A stretch of 63,882 bases of DNA, the filler included, from Rhabdomonas costata (lineage: Eukaryota): assembly GCA_019059605.1 (NCBI GenBank). It is 52 parts of 52 records of this genome, joined end to end, with 100 filler letters (N's around TTAATTAATTAA, not from the genome) between each part and the next. Parts side by side here need not be neighbours in the genome. Positions count along the whole stretch, not along the records: positions 11,080 to 12,210 come from JAHMHO010027079.1; 51 more parts are not named here. The stretch is one strand, 5' to 3'. This document shows positions 10,604 to 20,093 of the stretch, in pieces (the stretch's first letter is position 1; the number at the start of each line of letters is the position of its first letter). The notes under the pieces are model-generated. The model was given only the letters and a program-made list of their open reading frames with translations. It was not told where the DNA came from and made no database searches. A program made the position numbers and the translations under genes.

Positions 10604-11166
10604 CTAAGGCAGGCCCATGAGAAGTCCCTGAAAGTGTGCAGCGAAGGCTTTGAAAGAAAGGGCTCTCAGGCTTTACATCTAAACCTGAGCCGAGGAAAGA
10701 GATCATAGCCACCAAAGAAATGTCTCAGCTGCCGGTACGCCCGCAACACACATAAGACATAGGGAGAAGCCCATTGCATCCGTCCCATTCCACGACGACA
10801 AATGAAATCATATTCCTCTCGTTTCTCGTTCCGAAGCTCCTGCAGGGAAAGCCGCAGTCTTTCGTTGTGAGTAGGGTTCTTCCGTGGGGACGACTGGCAT
10901 CACGACGGTTCCAGCCAGCGGACAAATGGTCGCTGCAGAGCTTCCGTTTCGGAAAAGGTGATTTCGATCCCCACACAAANNNNNNNNNNNNNNNNNNNNN
11001 NNNNNNNNNNNNNNNNNNNNNNNTTAATTAATTAANNNNNNNNNNNNNNNNNNNNNNNNNNNNNNNNNNNNNNNNNNNNTGTGTTGTTGTATCAGGATAT
11101 AGTCCAAGTTATTGAATCATGACTTATTTATATTAAATAATAAAGTCGTTGTATCCTGATACAACG

Positions 11167-11259
11167 ACTTGGACTATATCCTGATACAACGACTTTATTA
11201 TTTAATATAAATAAGTCATGATTCAATAACTTGGACTATATCCTGATACAACAACTTTA
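11167..11259 (+). repeat. 31-bp direct repeat, two copies (one mismatch) with a 31-bp spacer, plus a partial copy at 11153-11170
   Basis: acttggactatatcctgatacaac(g/a)acttta occurs at 11167-11197 and 11229-11259. Confidence 0.85.
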
Positions 11260-11346
11260 ATATTTTATTTTTCTTTTTTTTTGGTCTTAAATTTTATTTT
11301 TTTAATATATATCATATTTAATCTTGAATCAAATAATTTATTATTT

Positions 11347-11460
11347 TACGATTTAGACCAGTTACACCGTAATCCGAAACTTGATAATTCTTTATAAAAA
11401 GATTTATCAATTGTGACTTTACAGTGGTTTGTTAAGGAGGATTACGACTCCTATTTATTC
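11347..11460 (-). ncRNA. Putative omegaRNA (reRNA): scaffold ~11367-11460 plus guide ~11347-11366
   Basis: Immediately 3' of the Fanzor stop is a hairpin AGGAG-tcgtaatc-CTCCT (11452-11435). Its loop CGTAATC is complementary to GATTACG (11374-11368), forming a pseudoknot. A second hairpin TTGATAA...TTATCAA spans 11410-11381, and the scaffold ends in ...GGATTACGG at 11367. Confidence 0.7.
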
Positions 11461-12210
11461 TTTTTTATTTTTCTATGCTCTTGATGTATATCCCTCTACT
11501 TCCATTCACATCACGATCTATGTGAATTCCACAATTTGTGCAATTATAACTTTTTGATCCACCTAGATCTTCTTTTATTGATCCACACATACTGCACATT
11601 TTACTCGTGTATTTCTCGTCTACACATTTATATTTTACTTCTCGTATTCGACACTTATATTGGAGTCGTTGTCTAAATTCATATAATCTTATTATTTGAG
11701 CCATTTTTTTCGTCCTATCTTGTAAATTATTCACGTTTTTATTACTTATTATACCTTTGGTACTTAAATTCCCAATTAGTATTTTTTCGTAATTTGACGT
11801 TAAATAATTTATTGTTTTCCAATGTATTTCATTCATCAAATTCCTTATTTTTTTATTACATCTTGATTCTATCTTCTTCCTTTTATGATATGGTACTTCT
11901 TTTCTTTTTTTAATTTCTTCACTTTTGTCGATATATTTATTCATTGTTTGCGTTATATTTTTCCCTATTTCAACTACTTTTTTTTCTGTTATTCCTGTTA
12001 ATAATGTTCTTATTCCTGGATCTAAACTTATTACCTTATTTTTTTTCTTTTTCTTTTTCTCTATTTCTACGTTTTCAGACGTATATAAGTAATATTTATT
12101 ATTTTGTAATATTTATTATTTTTATATACTAATCGACTGTCCTTTGTAATAGTCGAAAAATCAAATTTTTGACCATTATAATATCCAGTTACTGTTCCCA
12201 ACCCCAACAC
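11367..12210 (-). mobile_element. Right part of an IS607-like/Fanzor2 transposon, right end inferred at 11367
   Basis: A TnpB/Fanzor ORF followed by a structured 3' region ending in NGG, as expected for an IS607-family end. The contig is far more AT-rich than its neighbours. The left end and any transposase lie outside the contig. Confidence 0.6.
11465..12201 (-). CDS. tnpB: Fanzor2 / IS607-type TnpB RNA-guided endonuclease, 5'-truncated by the contig end, with one frameshift at 12089-12122
   Basis: The frame stays open upstream of the listed ATG (11944) to 12112, adding ...KNKVISLDPGIRTLLTGITEKKVVEIG (RuvC-I D at 12020-12022). It continues through HWKTINYLTSNYEKILIGNLS (G at the canonical RuvC-II E site), VDEKYTSK (shifted E at 11615-11617), a CSMC...CTNC zinc finger and IDRDVNGSRGI (RuvC-III D at 11510-11512). 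Upstream of the duplication another frame reads LGTVTGYYNGQKFDFSTITKDSRLVYKNNKYY. Confidence 0.93.
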
Positions 12211-17200: not shown

Positions 17201-17246
17201 NNNNNNNNNNNNNNNNNNNNNNNNNNNNNNNNNNNNGTGGGTTGGG

Positions 17247-17459
17247 TGAAATGCCGTTTTCTATGCCGTTTCGAGTCTCCTTATTTATGGAAAATCGATA
17301 CGCCGATAGAAAATCGAACGGAAAAATGTGGAAATGGACAAATGAAATGCCGTTTTCAAATGCCGTTTTCGATGGAAAACCGATATGTTTATGGAAAACC
17401 GAACGGAAATAATGTTGAATAATTATGTTAAATATATATAATGTTGAATAATTATGTTA

Positions 17460-17496
<37 letters not shown>

Positions 17497-18358
17497 GTTT
17501 TCTAATTTTTTTAACCTTATAAAGTATATAGAATTTAAAATATATTAAATATTTACATATATAAATATGTATTTTACAATTTGTAAACTTAAATATGTAT
17601 CTCAAAATATGTCTAATACTCAATACACATATTATATAAATATGCATATATATAATTTATTTATGTAAAAATTTTATATATAATGTTCTACCCAACACAT
17701 ATTTATACATTAAAATAAATACAATTACAAAAAAAAACAATATATATCTCAAAACAAACAAATACACACGTTATATTATATATAATATAATCTTTTTATT
17801 AGTGTATATAATGTATGATAATACAACTGTTTTTTTTGCTCCGAATACACAACTTATATGTAAGTATATGCATAGTTTTTTTTAGCCCATTTGGGCATGT
17901 TTATTTATGCTTAGCCCATTAGGTTTAGTATTCTTCTTCTCTAGCCGTGCAAGTGCAACTTTTCTAACATTTATTCTCGGGACATTATCAATTAGCTCTC
18001 GTACGGACAGTTTTACTCGCATCCTATAGTGGTGATAGAGTAACGCCTCAATGCATGTCCTCACTGCTGCCGCATAGCATATACCTACAAATACAGAGAG
18101 ATTAATTTGATAAGAGATCTAGAGAGAAAGAGTGATACGAGAGTAAAAAGAATTTTTTCATTACTTTGATCAAAGAGATTACAGAGTGTATATCAATGCT
18201 TAGTTGAGCGTAACCAAGGTTTGAAATGCCATTTTTGATGCCGTTTCGAGTCTCTTCATTTATGGAAAATCGATACGCCGACGGAAAATTGAACGGAAAA
18301 ATGTGAAAATGGGCAAATGAAATGCCGTTTTCAAATGCCATTTTCGATGGAAAACCGA
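17247..18358 (+). repeat. Pair of 137-bp direct repeats (17247-17383 and 18222-18358) flanking an extremely AT-rich core
   Basis: Hand alignment gives 11 mismatches in 137 bp with no gaps and a period of 975 bp. Each copy contains AAATGCCGTTTT sub-repeats. Confidence 0.9.
17882..18084 (-). pseudogene. Papain-like (C1) cysteine protease fragment
   Basis: After a ttgtag acceptor the frame reads (G)ICYAAAVRTCIEALLYHHYRMRVKLSVRELIDNV, resembling papain GSCWAF...IE......LSEQELVDC. It stops shortly afterwards. Confidence 0.45.
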
Positions 18359-20093
18359 CCACAACAANNNNNNNNNNNNNNNNNNNNNNNNNNNNNNNNN
18401 NNNNNNNNNNNTTAATTAATTAANNNNNNNNNNNNNNNNNNNNNNNNNNNNNNNNNNNNNNNNNNNNTCCCAGCCCAGCGCCCTCTGCTCCCCCCGGGAA
18501 CCTGTCGGAGCAGCGCTTCGCCGAGGCTCTGTCTGTATTGGAGCCCGTGAAAGGGGCGGGCATCCCACCACGCACCCCCACGCGAGTTCCCGTGGCGCAG
18601 GCCAGTGGTGAGTGCGCTGGATTCCTCCTCCACGGGTAATTTTGTATTTTGAATTACGTGCTCCTGATACGTGCGGGTTGTCAAGACCGGCTTTCTTTTT
18701 TTCCACAAGTGTAAAAACAAAAATGACGCCATCATTCAGGGCGAGTTTCAGTGGACAAAAAGGAGAGGGGATGAGCATTGTGCCGTCTTGTGGACATTCG
18801 ATTCGGGCAGGCAGTTTGGGCAGGAGAATTTCAGTTAAAAATCCTGTATAAGACCCAGACCTTGCGAGTGTTCGAAGGCCTCAGTGTTTGGGATTTCTTT
18901 TTACGAGCAGGAGTTTACCTTTAATGAACATGGAACTGAGGGATGGAGAGCGCATCATCTGGTCTGCTGATTTCTTGTGTAAATGACGTGCTCGTGATGT
19001 TGTTCATTGATGACGATGGGCCGCTTCGTCTAACCTTTGCTGCAGTTTTTGTAGTACATCCGTAAAGAACTACTCACAGTTCTATGTGAAGTGTAGTTCT
19101 GTACAGGTGCACTACTGAAATTTTTCAAGTTCGCAAAAATAAATGGCATATAAAATTTCAAAAATAGTAAGAAGAAAATGTGCCTTATCGAGTTCATTTC
19201 GGGGACCCCCTATTACGGTGCTCTGATCCAGGGTATGGATGCATTGAGGGTGTTGCGCCGGTGGAGTGGGGCGCGCCCACCCACACAAACATGCGCGAAG
19301 GGCACGTGCATTGCCACCTAACCCCTTGCGAGGTCTTCTGCCATGCCATTCTGTTTTAACAGGTGGACGAGACGTTCACCTTGTCCCAAAAATGGGTCCC
19401 TAAAAATGCACTCTAATTGGAGCGGTCCAAAAAATACACTTGATTAAGGGGGGGTCCCCCAGAACACCCCAGCTTGGGTTGAAGGGATCGCCGCTGAAAA
19501 GAGCGAGAGCTTTTGCTTTGGGTGGAGGTTGAAGTGTGTGTGCGTGTGGCTCGAATGGTTTGGCGCTGATCAAGGTACTGTGAGCAAACCCACAACACNN
19601 NNNNNNNNNNNNNNNNNNNNNNNNNNNNNNNNNNNNNNNNNNTTAATTAATTAANNNNNNNNNNNNNNNNNNNNNNNNNNNNNNNNNNNNNNNNNNNNTG
19701 TGGGTTTGGTGGAGTTGAGGAGGACTGGACCTGCACGCGATGTCCCTGCTGATGTTGGGGACCAGGTACCGCATTGACAAGGTGATGGGCTATCCCAGCC
19801 CATCACCTTGTCAATGCGGTACCTGGTCCCCAACATCAGCAGGGACATCGCGTGCAGGTCCAGCCCTCCTCAACTCCACCAAATCCGCGCCTACCAGCCC
19901 TGTAACCGGTCGCTGGAATGAACCACGTTTTAGTTGAAGTTGACCTCACGTTTCTCCTTTTGAGGAAGAGAAGCTCCCGCTGAATCAGTGGTAGTGCAGT
20001 CACAGCCTTATGTGCAGTCCCTCCTCAACTCCGCTTTGTTCTTCGCCTCCCCGTCTTCCCGGAAAACTGACCCTCCCTTCCTACCTCTCTCAG

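What the first reader, a model, noticed from the sequence alone, without database searches (positions are those of the whole stretch)
11347..12201. Fanzor2/TnpB RNA-guided nuclease locus with rearranged RuvC and an adjacent omegaRNA
Seen: the 159-aa ORF extends in frame upstream to include RuvC-I (VISLDPGIRT). It also carries ILIGNLS, VDEKYTSK, a CxxC..CxxC zinc finger and DRDVNG, followed by a structured non-coding region. Known: TnpB (the Cas12 ancestor) and its eukaryotic/viral Fanzor homologues are RNA-guided DNA endonucleases whose guide RNA overlaps the transposon right end. Fanzors have G/P at the canonical RuvC-II Glu and an alternative Glu further downstream (52 residues here), and Fanzor2 derives from IS607 TnpB. 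Inference: this is a Fanzor2 OMEGA system with an intact D-E-D triad, possibly a new orthologue from a poorly sampled host or its virus.
Basis: partly seen in the sequence, partly recalled or inferred. Interest (0 to 1): 0.95.

Follow-up and report, generated by a model that had tools for sequence, protein, structure and literature searches.

The report
Broken giant-virus-type Fanzor2 gene fragment
A 1.1-kb, very AT-rich contig holds the rear half of a Fanzor2-type RNA-guided nuclease gene with its guide-RNA scaffold and transposon end, of a kind common in giant viruses, but the copy is cut off and frameshifted.

Summary
The window is 52 unrelated ~1.13-kb contigs joined by spacers. The finding occupies one of them (11080-12210, 25.7% GC; most others ~50%). 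It meets the published Fanzor/pro-Fanzor signature: DPG, Gly at the canonical Glu, alternative Glu 52 residues on and six before the first CxxC, then RuvC-III Asp. Its closest solved structure, by sequence and by predicted fold, is mimivirus Fanzor2 (9b0l). In trees it groups with copies on giant-virus contigs, apart from 19 genuine bacterial TnpBs. Downstream I located the transposon right end (…TATCAAGTTTCGGATTACGG, last G at 11367) and an omegaRNA pseudoknot kept by compensatory changes (26 of 32 elements; control 14 of 256). However, about 216 N-terminal residues lie beyond the contig edge, and the frame is broken at an exact 17-nt tandem duplication. The RNA scaffold is the shortest of those compared and lacks one helix. 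No TnpA or viral hallmark gene can be seen on so short a contig, and reads could not be checked. Verdict: a real but degraded new member of a known kind, of moderate to low interest.

The parts
11080..12210 (.). One independent 1131-bp contig (25.7% GC), bounded by N/TTAATTAATTAA spacers. Everything described here lies inside it.
   Evidence: 52 pieces of 1125-1133 bp. This piece has 25.7% GC; 49 of the others have 47.7-59.8%.
12070..12210 (-). 47 codons in a different frame that run off the contig end. They are homologous to residues 220-251 of the full-length relative P0001. About 216 N-terminal residues are missing.
   Evidence: (26 of 32 identical, E 2e-16).
12089..12122 (.). Exact tandem duplication of 17 nt (2 copies). 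The reading frame changes here.
   Evidence: family D3, 100% identity, spacing 17.
11465..12112 (-). Open frame of 215 codons plus stop: the split RuvC domain with a zinc-finger (TNB) insert.
12020..12022 (-). RuvC-I Asp (residue 31, in the DPG motif). Aligns with L79 D324.
   Evidence: (invariant). D324A abolishes cleavage according to PMC10530073.
11771..11773 (-). Gly (residue 114, in ILIGNLS) at the canonical RuvC-II Glu position.
   Evidence: invariant in 30 sequences.
11615..11617 (-). Alternative RuvC-II Glu (residue 166, in VDEKYTSK), six residues before the first CxxC. Aligns with L79 E467.
   Evidence: E467A abolishes cleavage according to PMC10530073.
11531..11596 (-). CxxC...CxxC zinc finger (C173, C176, C191, C194).
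   Evidence: PF07282; all four Cys invariant.
11510..11512 (-). RuvC-III Asp (residue 201, in DRDVNG). Aligns with L79 D501.
11367..11464 (-). 98 nt from the stop codon to the right end: the omegaRNA scaffold region. Its 5' boundary is not determined and may lie inside the ORF.
11435..11452 (-). First hairpin, AGGAG-UCGUAAUC-CUCCU. Its loop GUAAU (11445..11441) is the 5' strand of the pseudoknot.
11381..11410 (-). Hairpin UUGAUAAAUCUUU/AAAGAAUUAUCAA. Its 3' arm is part of the conserved terminal motif.
   Evidence: in both MFE and centroid structures; model hit 11410-11376.
11367..11397 (-). Conserved right-end module TTATAAAGAATTATCAAGTTTCGGATTACGG. AUUAC (11373..11369) is the 3' strand of the pseudoknot. 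The terminal GG is 11368..11367.
   Evidence: information content falls from 2 bits to 0.48 or less after the GG; E 3.8e-07.
11347..11366 (-). Flank immediately beyond the right end. By analogy with TnpB/Fanzor2, this is the ~20-nt guide portion of the omegaRNA (inferred).
   Evidence: Position relative to the boundary. Scaffold and guide layout of ApmFz2 from PMC11832414.
11083..11255 (.). Long inverted repeat (79-nt arms, 97% complementary, 15-nt spacer) in the flank, ending 3 nt from the contig edge. Probably not part of the element.

Best explanation
The contig carries the right-hand part of an IS607-lineage Fanzor2 element that sits in very AT-rich DNA, most likely a giant-virus (NCLDV) genome or DNA derived from one, sequenced together with a ~50% GC organism. 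Three things are present. One is the C-terminal ~53% of the nuclease gene: the split RuvC with the rearranged D-E-D site, plus the zinc finger. The second is the omegaRNA scaffold after the stop codon, whose first hairpin loop forms a pseudoknot with the five nucleotides before the terminal GG. The third is the transposon right end at 11367, followed by flank that would serve as the guide. In an intact element, the protein binds this RNA and cuts DNA that matches the guide next to a G-rich TAM, which helps the element persist (mechanism taken from ApmFz2 and TnpB work). This particular copy is probably decaying. The frame is broken at a 17-nt tandem duplication, and the RNA scaffold is about half the usual length and lacks one long-range helix. 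Shown here: homology, motifs, fold, the right-end boundary, pseudoknot covariation and phylogenetic placement. Inferred: viral origin, the guide, activity and pseudogene status.
For: Family: Pfam, NCBIfam and PHROG hits. Signature: the sequence matches the published pattern DPG-x(120-160)-E-x6-CxxC-x(12-18)-CxxC-x(4-8)-D (pattern from PMC10711439). Structure: phmmer to 9b0l_P gives E 1.1e-23, with D31, E166 and D201 opposite D324, E467 and D501. The AF2 model has pLDDT 85 and pTM 0.77. Its top Foldseek hit is the ApmFz2 ternary complex 9b0l_P (E 1.9e-13, TM 0.70), followed by TnpB and Cas12f. Placement: in the 186-row tree the window lies in a 95* set of 55 rows: itself, 38 metagenome, 11 IMG/VR and 5 labelled prokaryotic. 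Of those five, L083 is nearly identical to a GVMAG contig. The three 'Methylomonas MAG' rows come from a bin whose contig 47 has an NCLDV capsid gene, found in 0 of 14 control genomes. In the curated 48-row IQ-TREE the 19 bacterial rows form one side of a branch (support 87), and the window lies in a 98* set of 22 rows with no bacteria. Context of relatives: L010 (60% identical over the best segment) lies beside NCLDV capsid and VLTF3 genes. Seven of 14 loci examined have a divergent upstream ORF, and all 7 are MerR + Resolvase, the IS607 TnpA type. L001 lies on a 1.15-Mb contig with a locus GC of 25.7%. Composition: ORF 26.4%, scaffold 29.6% and flank 22.6% GC, against ~50% for most other pieces. 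RNA and right end: the motif occurs in 24 of 219 3' flanks, in 0 reverse-complement controls and in 0 of 219 upstream controls. The conservation boundary is sharp. The pseudoknot complement is found in 26 of 32 elements with their own sequence, against 14 of 256 with a foreign one, across several compensatory classes including the window's own. A model built without the window finds one hit, 26.7 bits, E 3.8e-07, with the next at 4.8 bits. The layout agrees with the ApmFz2 omegaRNA, which has a pseudoknot between the 5' region and positions -4 to 0.
Against: No NCLDV hallmark gene, TnpA or left end is on the contig, so viral origin rests on relatives and base composition. The closest relatives (P0001-P0004 and P0006; 53-71% identity) are unnamed metagenome proteins whose DNA context I could not fetch. 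NCBIfam guided_TnpB scores 99.7 bits, just under its cut-off of 100, as expected for a fragment. In my trees the clade that appears to hold isolate mimivirid copies (L056/L057/L077) is not resolved as sister to the window's clade (support 49), so monophyly of 'Fanzor2' against the bacterial pro-Fanzors is not shown here. Folding energy alone is weak (z about -2). The terminal GG was part of my search criterion, so its invariance is partly by construction. The frameshift and the short scaffold could be assembly errors, and reads could not be examined.
Confidence: 0.72

Rival explanations
1. The element is intact and active in the organism. On this reading the frameshift, and perhaps the short scaffold and the palindromic contig end, are errors of a low-coverage short-contig assembly, and the rest of the gene lies on an unassembled neighbour.
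For: All catalytic and zinc-binding residues are intact in the 215-codon frame. The 47 codons upstream are still 81% identical to P0001. The pseudoknot is kept by its own compensatory pair. Long stem-loops of Fanzor2/TnpB RNAs are reported to be dispensable (PMC11832414 passages). L038 and L167 also lack the second helix.
Against: An exact 17-nt tandem duplication is not a typical short-read error. The 5' strand of the second helix, present in 22 of 32 elements, is absent, and the scaffold is the shortest of those with a pseudoknot loop. The nearest NCLDV-linked copy, L010, is also degraded: three frames, and NLG in place of DPG. That shows such copies do decay.
Confidence: 0.25
2. It is a resident Fanzor2 copy of a cellular eukaryote's own genome, either in an AT-rich compartment or within an endogenised giant-virus insertion, rather than DNA of a free virus.
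For: Fanzor2 copies are known in eukaryotic genomes such as molluscs and algae (PMC10711439, PMC10530073). Two other pieces of the window also have lower GC, 28.7% and 39.9%. Degraded copies are typical of endogenised DNA.
Against: The flank beyond the right end is also 22.6% GC, unlike the bulk of the assembly. The nearest relatives with known context are on giant-virus contigs, and many have an IS607 TnpA. The other low-GC piece examined is a non-coding repeat and shows no homology to the relatives.
Confidence: 0.2
3. It is a bacterial IS607 TnpB ('pro-Fanzor') from a contaminating or symbiotic AT-rich bacterium.
For: DPG + alternative-Glu TnpBs exist in bacteria (PMC10711439). Five rows labelled as prokaryotic MAGs fall in the window's clade. 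A Rickettsiales MAG and a Parachlamydia MAG carry more distant relatives.
Against: Genuine bacterial genomes reach only 26-33% identity, and all 19 sampled form the other side of the curated tree. Of the 'prokaryotic' rows in the window's clade, one bin contains an NCLDV capsid gene, one contig is nearly identical to a GVMAG contig, and one is a 1.4-kb contig.
Confidence: 0.06

Closest known systems
Acanthamoeba polyphaga mimivirus Fanzor2 (ApmFz2 / ApmFNuc, 'TnpB-like protein L79', PDB 9b0l)
   Same: Best PDB match by sequence (E 1.1e-23) and by predicted fold (E 1.9e-13, TM 0.70). DPG Asp, Gly at the canonical Glu, alternative Glu six residues before the zinc finger, and RuvC-III Asp all align. 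The omegaRNA lies after the ORF, with a pseudoknot between its 5' part and its last nucleotides, and the element end is G-rich. Relatives of the window carry an IS607 TnpA.
   Different: Only about 33% identity over the aligned part. It belongs to a different, mainly metagenomic subclade. The scaffold is about 98 nt after the stop, against about 205 nt in ApmFz2. The N-terminal half, which holds the RuvC-R, thumb, NLS, REC and WED parts, is missing, and the frame is broken.
Unnamed metagenome proteins P0001-P0004 (457-468 aa) and IMG/VR giant-virus copies L001-L011
   Same: 57-71% (P0001-P0004) and 42-60% (IMG/VR) identity. Same motifs. The IMG/VR copies and other fetched loci share the right-end module and the pseudoknot.
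   Different: Those proteins are full length. Most elements have 130-166 nt between the pseudoknot loop and the end, plus the AAACTTG/CAAGTTT helix. The window's pseudoknot pair, GUAAU/AUUAC, was seen in no other element.
Bacterial IS607 TnpB with rearranged site ('pro-Fanzor', e.g. cyanobacterial; ISXfa1-type)
   Same: Same DPG + alternative-Glu signature, IS607 association, pseudoknotted reRNA and GG-type end (PMC10711439 passages).
   Different: 26-33% identity, and on a separate side of the tree.
Fanzor1 (e.g. Spizellomyces punctatus SpuFz1, PDB 8gkh)
   Same: Same superfamily and the same rearranged catalytic site.
   Different: Fold matches appear only at rank 30 and below (E 3.5e-04 or weaker, TM about 0.4). 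According to PMC11832414, Fanzor1 RNAs lack the pseudoknot that is present here.

Membership tests
TnpB superfamily (OrfB_IS605 + Cas12f1-like TNB) | Split RuvC domain with a zinc-finger insert, recognised by family profiles | tested here: met
   PF07282 70.1 bits (cut-off 26.3) and PF01385 41 bits (cut-off 30.5). NF040570 99.7 bits against a cut-off of 100 on a fragment.
TnpB superfamily (OrfB_IS605 + Cas12f1-like TNB) | RuvC/RNase H-like fold | tested here: met
   AF2 pLDDT 85. 36 PDB matches at E <= 0.001, led by ApmFz2, TnpB and Cas12f. Distances between the three acidic residues could not be measured, because no coordinates are returned.
Fanzor / pro-Fanzor lineage (Yoon et al. 2023) | DPG motif at RuvC-I | tested here: met
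   VISLDPGIRT. D31 and G33 are invariant and P32 is at least 90% conserved in A1.
Fanzor / pro-Fanzor lineage (Yoon et al. 2023) | Non-acidic residue at the canonical RuvC-II Glu, with an alternative Glu six residues before the first CxxC | tested here: met
   G114 and E166, 52 residues apart. E-x6-C spacing. The full published pattern matches.
Fanzor2 (as opposed to bacterial pro-Fanzor TnpB) | Encoded in a eukaryote or a eukaryotic virus | tested here: inconclusive
   Indirect only: tree placement with NCLDV-context copies and 23-30% GC in the gene, scaffold and flank. No hallmark gene on the contig. No genome held. Reads not available.
Fanzor2 (IS607-type) | Associated IS607 serine recombinase (MerR HTH + Resolvase TnpA) | not testable with these tools
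   The contig ends inside the nuclease gene. Among relatives, 7 of 14 loci examined have it, in divergent orientation.
Fanzor2 (IS607-type) | omegaRNA after the ORF, with a pseudoknot between a 5' element and the last nucleotides of the scaffold | tested here: met
   Loop GUAAU (11445..11441) pairs with AUUAC (11373..11369). Across elements, 26 of 32 with their own sequence against 14 of 256 with a foreign one.
Fanzor2 (IS607-type) | Defined right end with a terminal GG, after which conservation stops | tested here: met
   The GG itself was part of the search criterion. The drop in conservation after it and the conserved T and A at positions -6 and -5 were not.
Fanzor2 | N-terminal extension (RuvC-R, thumb, NLS) with REC and WED domains | not testable with these tools
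   About 216 N-terminal residues lie beyond the contig end.
Fanzor2 | RNA-guided, TAM-dependent DNA cleavage | not testable with these tools
   Needs biochemistry. This copy is truncated and frameshifted.
Fanzor1 | Larger protein with REC and RuvC insertions, RNA without a pseudoknot, carried by eukaryotic transposon families | tested here: not met
   SpuFz chains appear only at rank 30 or below. A pseudoknot is present. Relatives are 430-480 aa.

The most novel reading that the evidence does not exclude
The window's copy, and possibly its unsampled closest relatives, may be a naturally minimised Fanzor2 omegaRNA. It has about 79 nt between the pseudoknot strands, against 104-207 nt in the other elements compared here and about 190 nt in ApmFz2. 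It keeps only the first hairpin, one further hairpin and the pseudoknot. It belongs to a large environmental giant-virus Fanzor2 subclade that is only about 33% identical to ApmFz2. That subclade has a simple, recognisable right end (a tandem TATCAAG motif, then GTAACGG) whose last bases co-vary with the hairpin loop. If functional, this would be a compact natural scaffold for a nuclease of about 460 aa.
Probability: 0.2. Interest if true: 0.5.

Novelty: new member of a known kind. Interest (0 to 1): 0.3.

Why it matters
Fanzor2 nucleases are compact eukaryote- and virus-borne RNA-guided enzymes of interest for genome editing and for the evolution of TnpB and Cas12. This copy adds little by itself, since it is truncated and frameshifted on a 1.1-kb contig, with full-length relatives at up to 71% identity already in public data. 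Three by-products are useful. First, a large environmental giant-virus subclade has a sharply defined right end and a pseudoknot supported by several compensatory classes, which allows omegaRNA boundaries to be called from sequence alone. Second, the contig signals giant-virus-like DNA within this assembly. Third, some 'bacterial' MAG contigs that carry these genes are mis-binned giant-virus DNA.

Tried and rejected
1. Own-genome search: no genome is held.
Read support for the duplication, depth and contig extension therefore stay unchecked.
3. Single-protein scan of viral contigs: 284 pattern hits, none a relative. The alignment-based scan worked.
4. Rfam: nothing at gathering thresholds in the whole window. 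At E <= 1, only sub-threshold plant-miRNA-like and Wolbachia-sRNA matches to the long inverted repeat. I read these as generic long-hairpin matches.
5. nhmmer with the 3' region found nothing. blastn gave mostly low-complexity AT hits, but it did reveal the short conserved motif.
6. The metagenome scan gave no relative closer than 49-56% identity.
7. A search for the window's exact right-end sequence in viral contigs gave 0 hits. A version with 4 N gave 37 hits, but none of the 37 loci encodes a homologue, so these were chance matches.
8. The RNAalifold consensus on the 75-nt terminal alignment gave no base pair, so model R1 is sequence-only.
9. The long inverted repeat has no copy elsewhere in the window and no exact copy in viral contigs. 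Its role is unexplained.
10. No other piece of the window carries the missing N-terminal half.
11. Both look-ups of earlier findings returned nothing.
12. Supplementary files of the papers were not seen. The Fanzor2 sequence lists in them might already include members of this subclade.
Full report
**What the window is.** The 63,882-base window is 52 separate contigs of 1125-1133 bp, joined by N/TTAATTAATTAA spacers. The finding lies wholly inside one of them, 11080-12210. That piece has 25.7% GC, while 49 of the other 51 pieces have 47.7-59.8%. Nothing in neighbouring pieces can serve as genomic context. No whole genome is held for the window.

**The observation.**
- On the minus strand, the 159-aa ATG-ORF (11465-11944) is open upstream to 12112, which gives 215 codons.
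- The Gly at the canonical Glu position and the alternative Glu are exactly 52 residues apart.
- Profile searches leave no doubt about the family: PF07282 at E 1.8e-19 and PF01385 at E 2.6e-10; NCBIfam 'RNA-guided endonuclease TnpB family' at E 2.1e-28, 99.7 bits against a cut-off of 100; PHROG 506 at E 1e-34.

**How the gene is damaged.**
- A further 47 codons upstream (12210-12070) lie in another frame and run off the contig. They match residues 220-251 of the 457-aa relative P0001, with 26 of 32 identical.
- About 216 N-terminal residues are therefore simply not on the contig. No other piece of the window holds them.
- The frame change falls at an exact tandem duplication of 17 nt, 12089-12105 and 12106-12122.

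**Which kind of TnpB.**
- Yoon et al. 2023 (PMC10711439; passages read) define the Fanzor/pro-Fanzor lineage by two features: a DPG RuvC-I motif, and an alternative Glu six residues before the first CxxC. They give an explicit pattern for it.
- The window's frame matches that pattern: D31, G114, E166, C173 and D201. So do 125 of the 133 proteins stored at that point. These residues are invariant in a 30-sequence alignment.
- The window's fragment aligns to PDB 9b0l chain P, 'TnpB-like protein L79', at E 1.1e-23. D31, E166 and D201 lie opposite D324, E467 and D501.
- Jiang et al. 2023 (PMC10530073; passages read) report that D324A and E467A abolish cleavage by this mimivirus enzyme.
- An AlphaFold2 model of the 215 residues, built with that alignment, has mean pLDDT 85 and pTM 0.77.
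- Its best Foldseek match in the PDB is the same entry, the A. polyphaga mimivirus Fanzor2 ternary complex (E 1.9e-13, TM 0.70, 33% identity). ISFba1 TnpB, Cas12f and ISDra2 TnpB follow. Fanzor1 (SpuFz) appears only from rank 30.
- I could not measure distances between the three acidic residues, because the tool returns no coordinates.

**Where it comes from.**
- A search among longer proteins found 211 relatives at E <= 0.001 among 1818 candidates. The best is 71% identical, and most are 430-480 aa and unnamed.
- An alignment-based scan of IMG/VR returned 121 relatives among 187 pattern hits. The closest (42-60% identity) lie on contigs named as giant-virus MAGs or on very large AT-rich contigs, for example 1.15 Mb with a locus GC of 25.7%.
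- The same scan of one genome per prokaryotic species returned 245 relatives among 303 hits. Genuine bacterial chromosomes (Dehalococcoidia, Caldilineaceae, Chromatiaceae, Anabaenopsis) reach only 26-33% identity.
- The few 'prokaryotic' hits at 43-46% identity are doubtful. One 1.6-kb contig is nearly identical to a giant-virus MAG contig. The 'Methylomonas' bin has an NCLDV major capsid gene on contig 47, the contig that also carries one of its copies, while 0 of 14 control genomes match.
- In a FastTree of 186 rows, the window lies in a 99* group with five metagenome proteins. That group sits inside a 95* set of 55 rows: the window, 38 metagenome, 11 IMG/VR and the five doubtful 'prokaryotic' rows.
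- In a curated 48-row IQ-TREE (quick search), the 19 bacterial rows form one side of a branch (support 87). The window lies in a 98* set of 22 rows that holds no bacterium.
- One caveat: the small clade L056/L057/L077 is not resolved relative to the bacterial side (support 49). I believe from recall of a genome length that L057 is an isolate mimivirid.
- Relatives supply the context that the window lacks. L010, 60% identical over its best segment, lies beside genes with NCLDV capsid and VLTF3 domains. Seven of 14 loci examined have a divergent upstream ORF, and all seven carry MerR plus Resolvase domains, the IS607 TnpA type.
- Within the window's contig the ORF, the region from stop to right end, and the flank have 26.4%, 29.6% and 22.6% GC. 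The element therefore sits in AT-rich DNA, not in the ~50% GC bulk.

**The RNA and the transposon end.**
- Folding energy alone is unimpressive (z -2.24 and -1.91).
- Comparison with the 3' flanks of relatives is informative. A motif, TTATMAAGAAWTATCAAGTTT, occurs in 24 of 219 flanks, on the coding strand, 90-265 nt (mostly 106-180) after the stop. It occurs in none of the reverse-complemented flanks and in 0 of 219 upstream/internal control stretches.
- Anchoring on the motif recovers 35 ends: the window plus 34 loci.
- Across the 32 distinct sequences among the 34 that extend 40 nt beyond the end, conservation runs through ...GTAACGG and then collapses, from 2.0 bits at CGG to 0.48 bits or less at every later position. 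The GG was part of my search criterion; the collapse after it was not.
- This is the right end. In the window its last G is 11367, 98 nt after the stop.
- A model built from 31 relatives only finds a single significant match in the whole window, 11410-11376 on the minus strand (26.7 bits, E 3.8e-07). The next best scores 4.8 bits.
- Shortly after the stop, most elements have a small hairpin whose loop is the exact complement of the five bases before the terminal GG. This holds for 26 of 32 distinct sequences with their own end, against 14 of 256 when another class's end is used.
- The pair changes together across classes: GUUAC/GUAAC, GAUAC/GUAUC, GCUAC/GUAGC, GUUAU/AUAAC and GUCAU/AUGAC. The window has its own pair, GUAAU/AUUAC, with the hairpin at 11452-11435.
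- This matches the cryo-EM description of the ApmFz2 omegaRNA. There the first 45 nt of a 205-nt scaffold form a pseudoknot with positions -4 to 0, the long stem-loops are thought dispensable, and the TAM is GGG (PMC11832414; passages read). It also matches the prediction of a conserved pseudoknot in Fanzor2 RNAs (PMC10711439).
- A second long-range helix (AAACTTG with CAAGTTT, also with compensatory variants) is present in 22 of 32 sequences but not in the window.
- The window's 79 nt from pseudoknot loop to end is the shortest in the set, where the others are mostly 104-177 nt.
That is an inference.

**Mechanism.** In an intact element of this kind, the nuclease binds the scaffold transcribed from its own 3' end. 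It then uses the read-through flank as a guide to cut matching DNA beside a G-rich TAM. This is shown for ApmFz2 and for TnpB, but not here. For this copy, the broken frame, the missing N-terminal half and the shortened RNA make a decaying remnant the most likely reading. An assembly artefact cannot be excluded without reads. The nearest NCLDV-linked copy, L010, is also degraded.

**Novelty and score.** This is a new member of a known kind. Fanzor2 genes in giant viruses, their rearranged site, their IS607 link and their pseudoknotted RNA are all in print (PMC3627910, search listing and abstract only; PMC10530073, PMC10711439 and PMC11832414, passages read). I did not see the papers' supplements, which may already list members of this subclade. 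The modest additions are the explicit right-end motif and pseudoknot covariation for a large environmental subclade, the unusually short scaffold, and evidence that some bacterial MAGs carrying these genes include giant-virus contigs. Interest: 0.3.

Noticed in passing
window 1-63882: The window is not one stretch of genome. It is 52 contigs of 1125-1133 bp, apparently sorted by length, joined by N...TTAATTAATTAA...N spacers. Neighbouring pieces say nothing about each other.
   Followed up: yes
window 11083-11255: A long inverted repeat (79-nt arms, 97% complementary, 15-nt spacer) with nested copies of CTTGGACTATATCCTGATACAAC (three in the piece). It starts 112 nt beyond the element's right end and ends 3 nt from the contig edge. 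There is no copy elsewhere in the window and no exact copy in IMG/VR. It could be a terminator-like hairpin, a MITE or an assembly effect.
   Followed up: partly
window 11358-11366: The first bases of the flank beyond the right end read TGTAACTGG, which resembles the clade's consensus end GTAACGG. This may be chance, or a remnant or preferred target.
   Followed up: no
L081, L082, L084 (GTDB 'Methylomonas sp.' MAG; G001 contig 47): This bacterial MAG carries three copies of the giant-virus-type gene. Contig 47, which also carries L084, has an NCLDV major capsid gene (PF04451, 38.6 bits; 0 of 14 control genomes). The bin appears to contain giant-virus contigs.
   Followed up: partly
L083 (MAG 'bacterium isolate WB6_1A_297', 1590 bp) and L007 (GVMAG contig): The two copies are nearly identical (branch lengths 0.0095 and 0). 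A 20% GC contig filed under a bacterial MAG matches a giant-virus MAG.
   Followed up: no
L010:5212-6270: This is the copy closest to the window that is physically linked to NCLDV capsid and VLTF3 genes. It is itself degraded: its homology is spread over three frame segments, and RuvC-I reads NLG instead of DPG.
   Followed up: partly
L168, L171, L218 (three metagenome contigs): The three are identical over the last 34 nt up to the terminal CGG, then have unrelated flanks. That is what recent transposition of one element family into different sites would give.
   Followed up: no
L001, L002, L003, L007, L008, L009, L011: The IS607-type TnpA (MerR + Resolvase) lies directly upstream of the nuclease gene on the opposite strand (divergent), not co-directional.
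   Followed up: partly
window 17237-18367: A second very AT-rich piece (28.7% GC). It looks non-coding, with short tandem repeats (29-nt unit x2.1, 13-nt units, (AT)18). It shows no significant similarity to the Fanzor relatives.
   Followed up: partly
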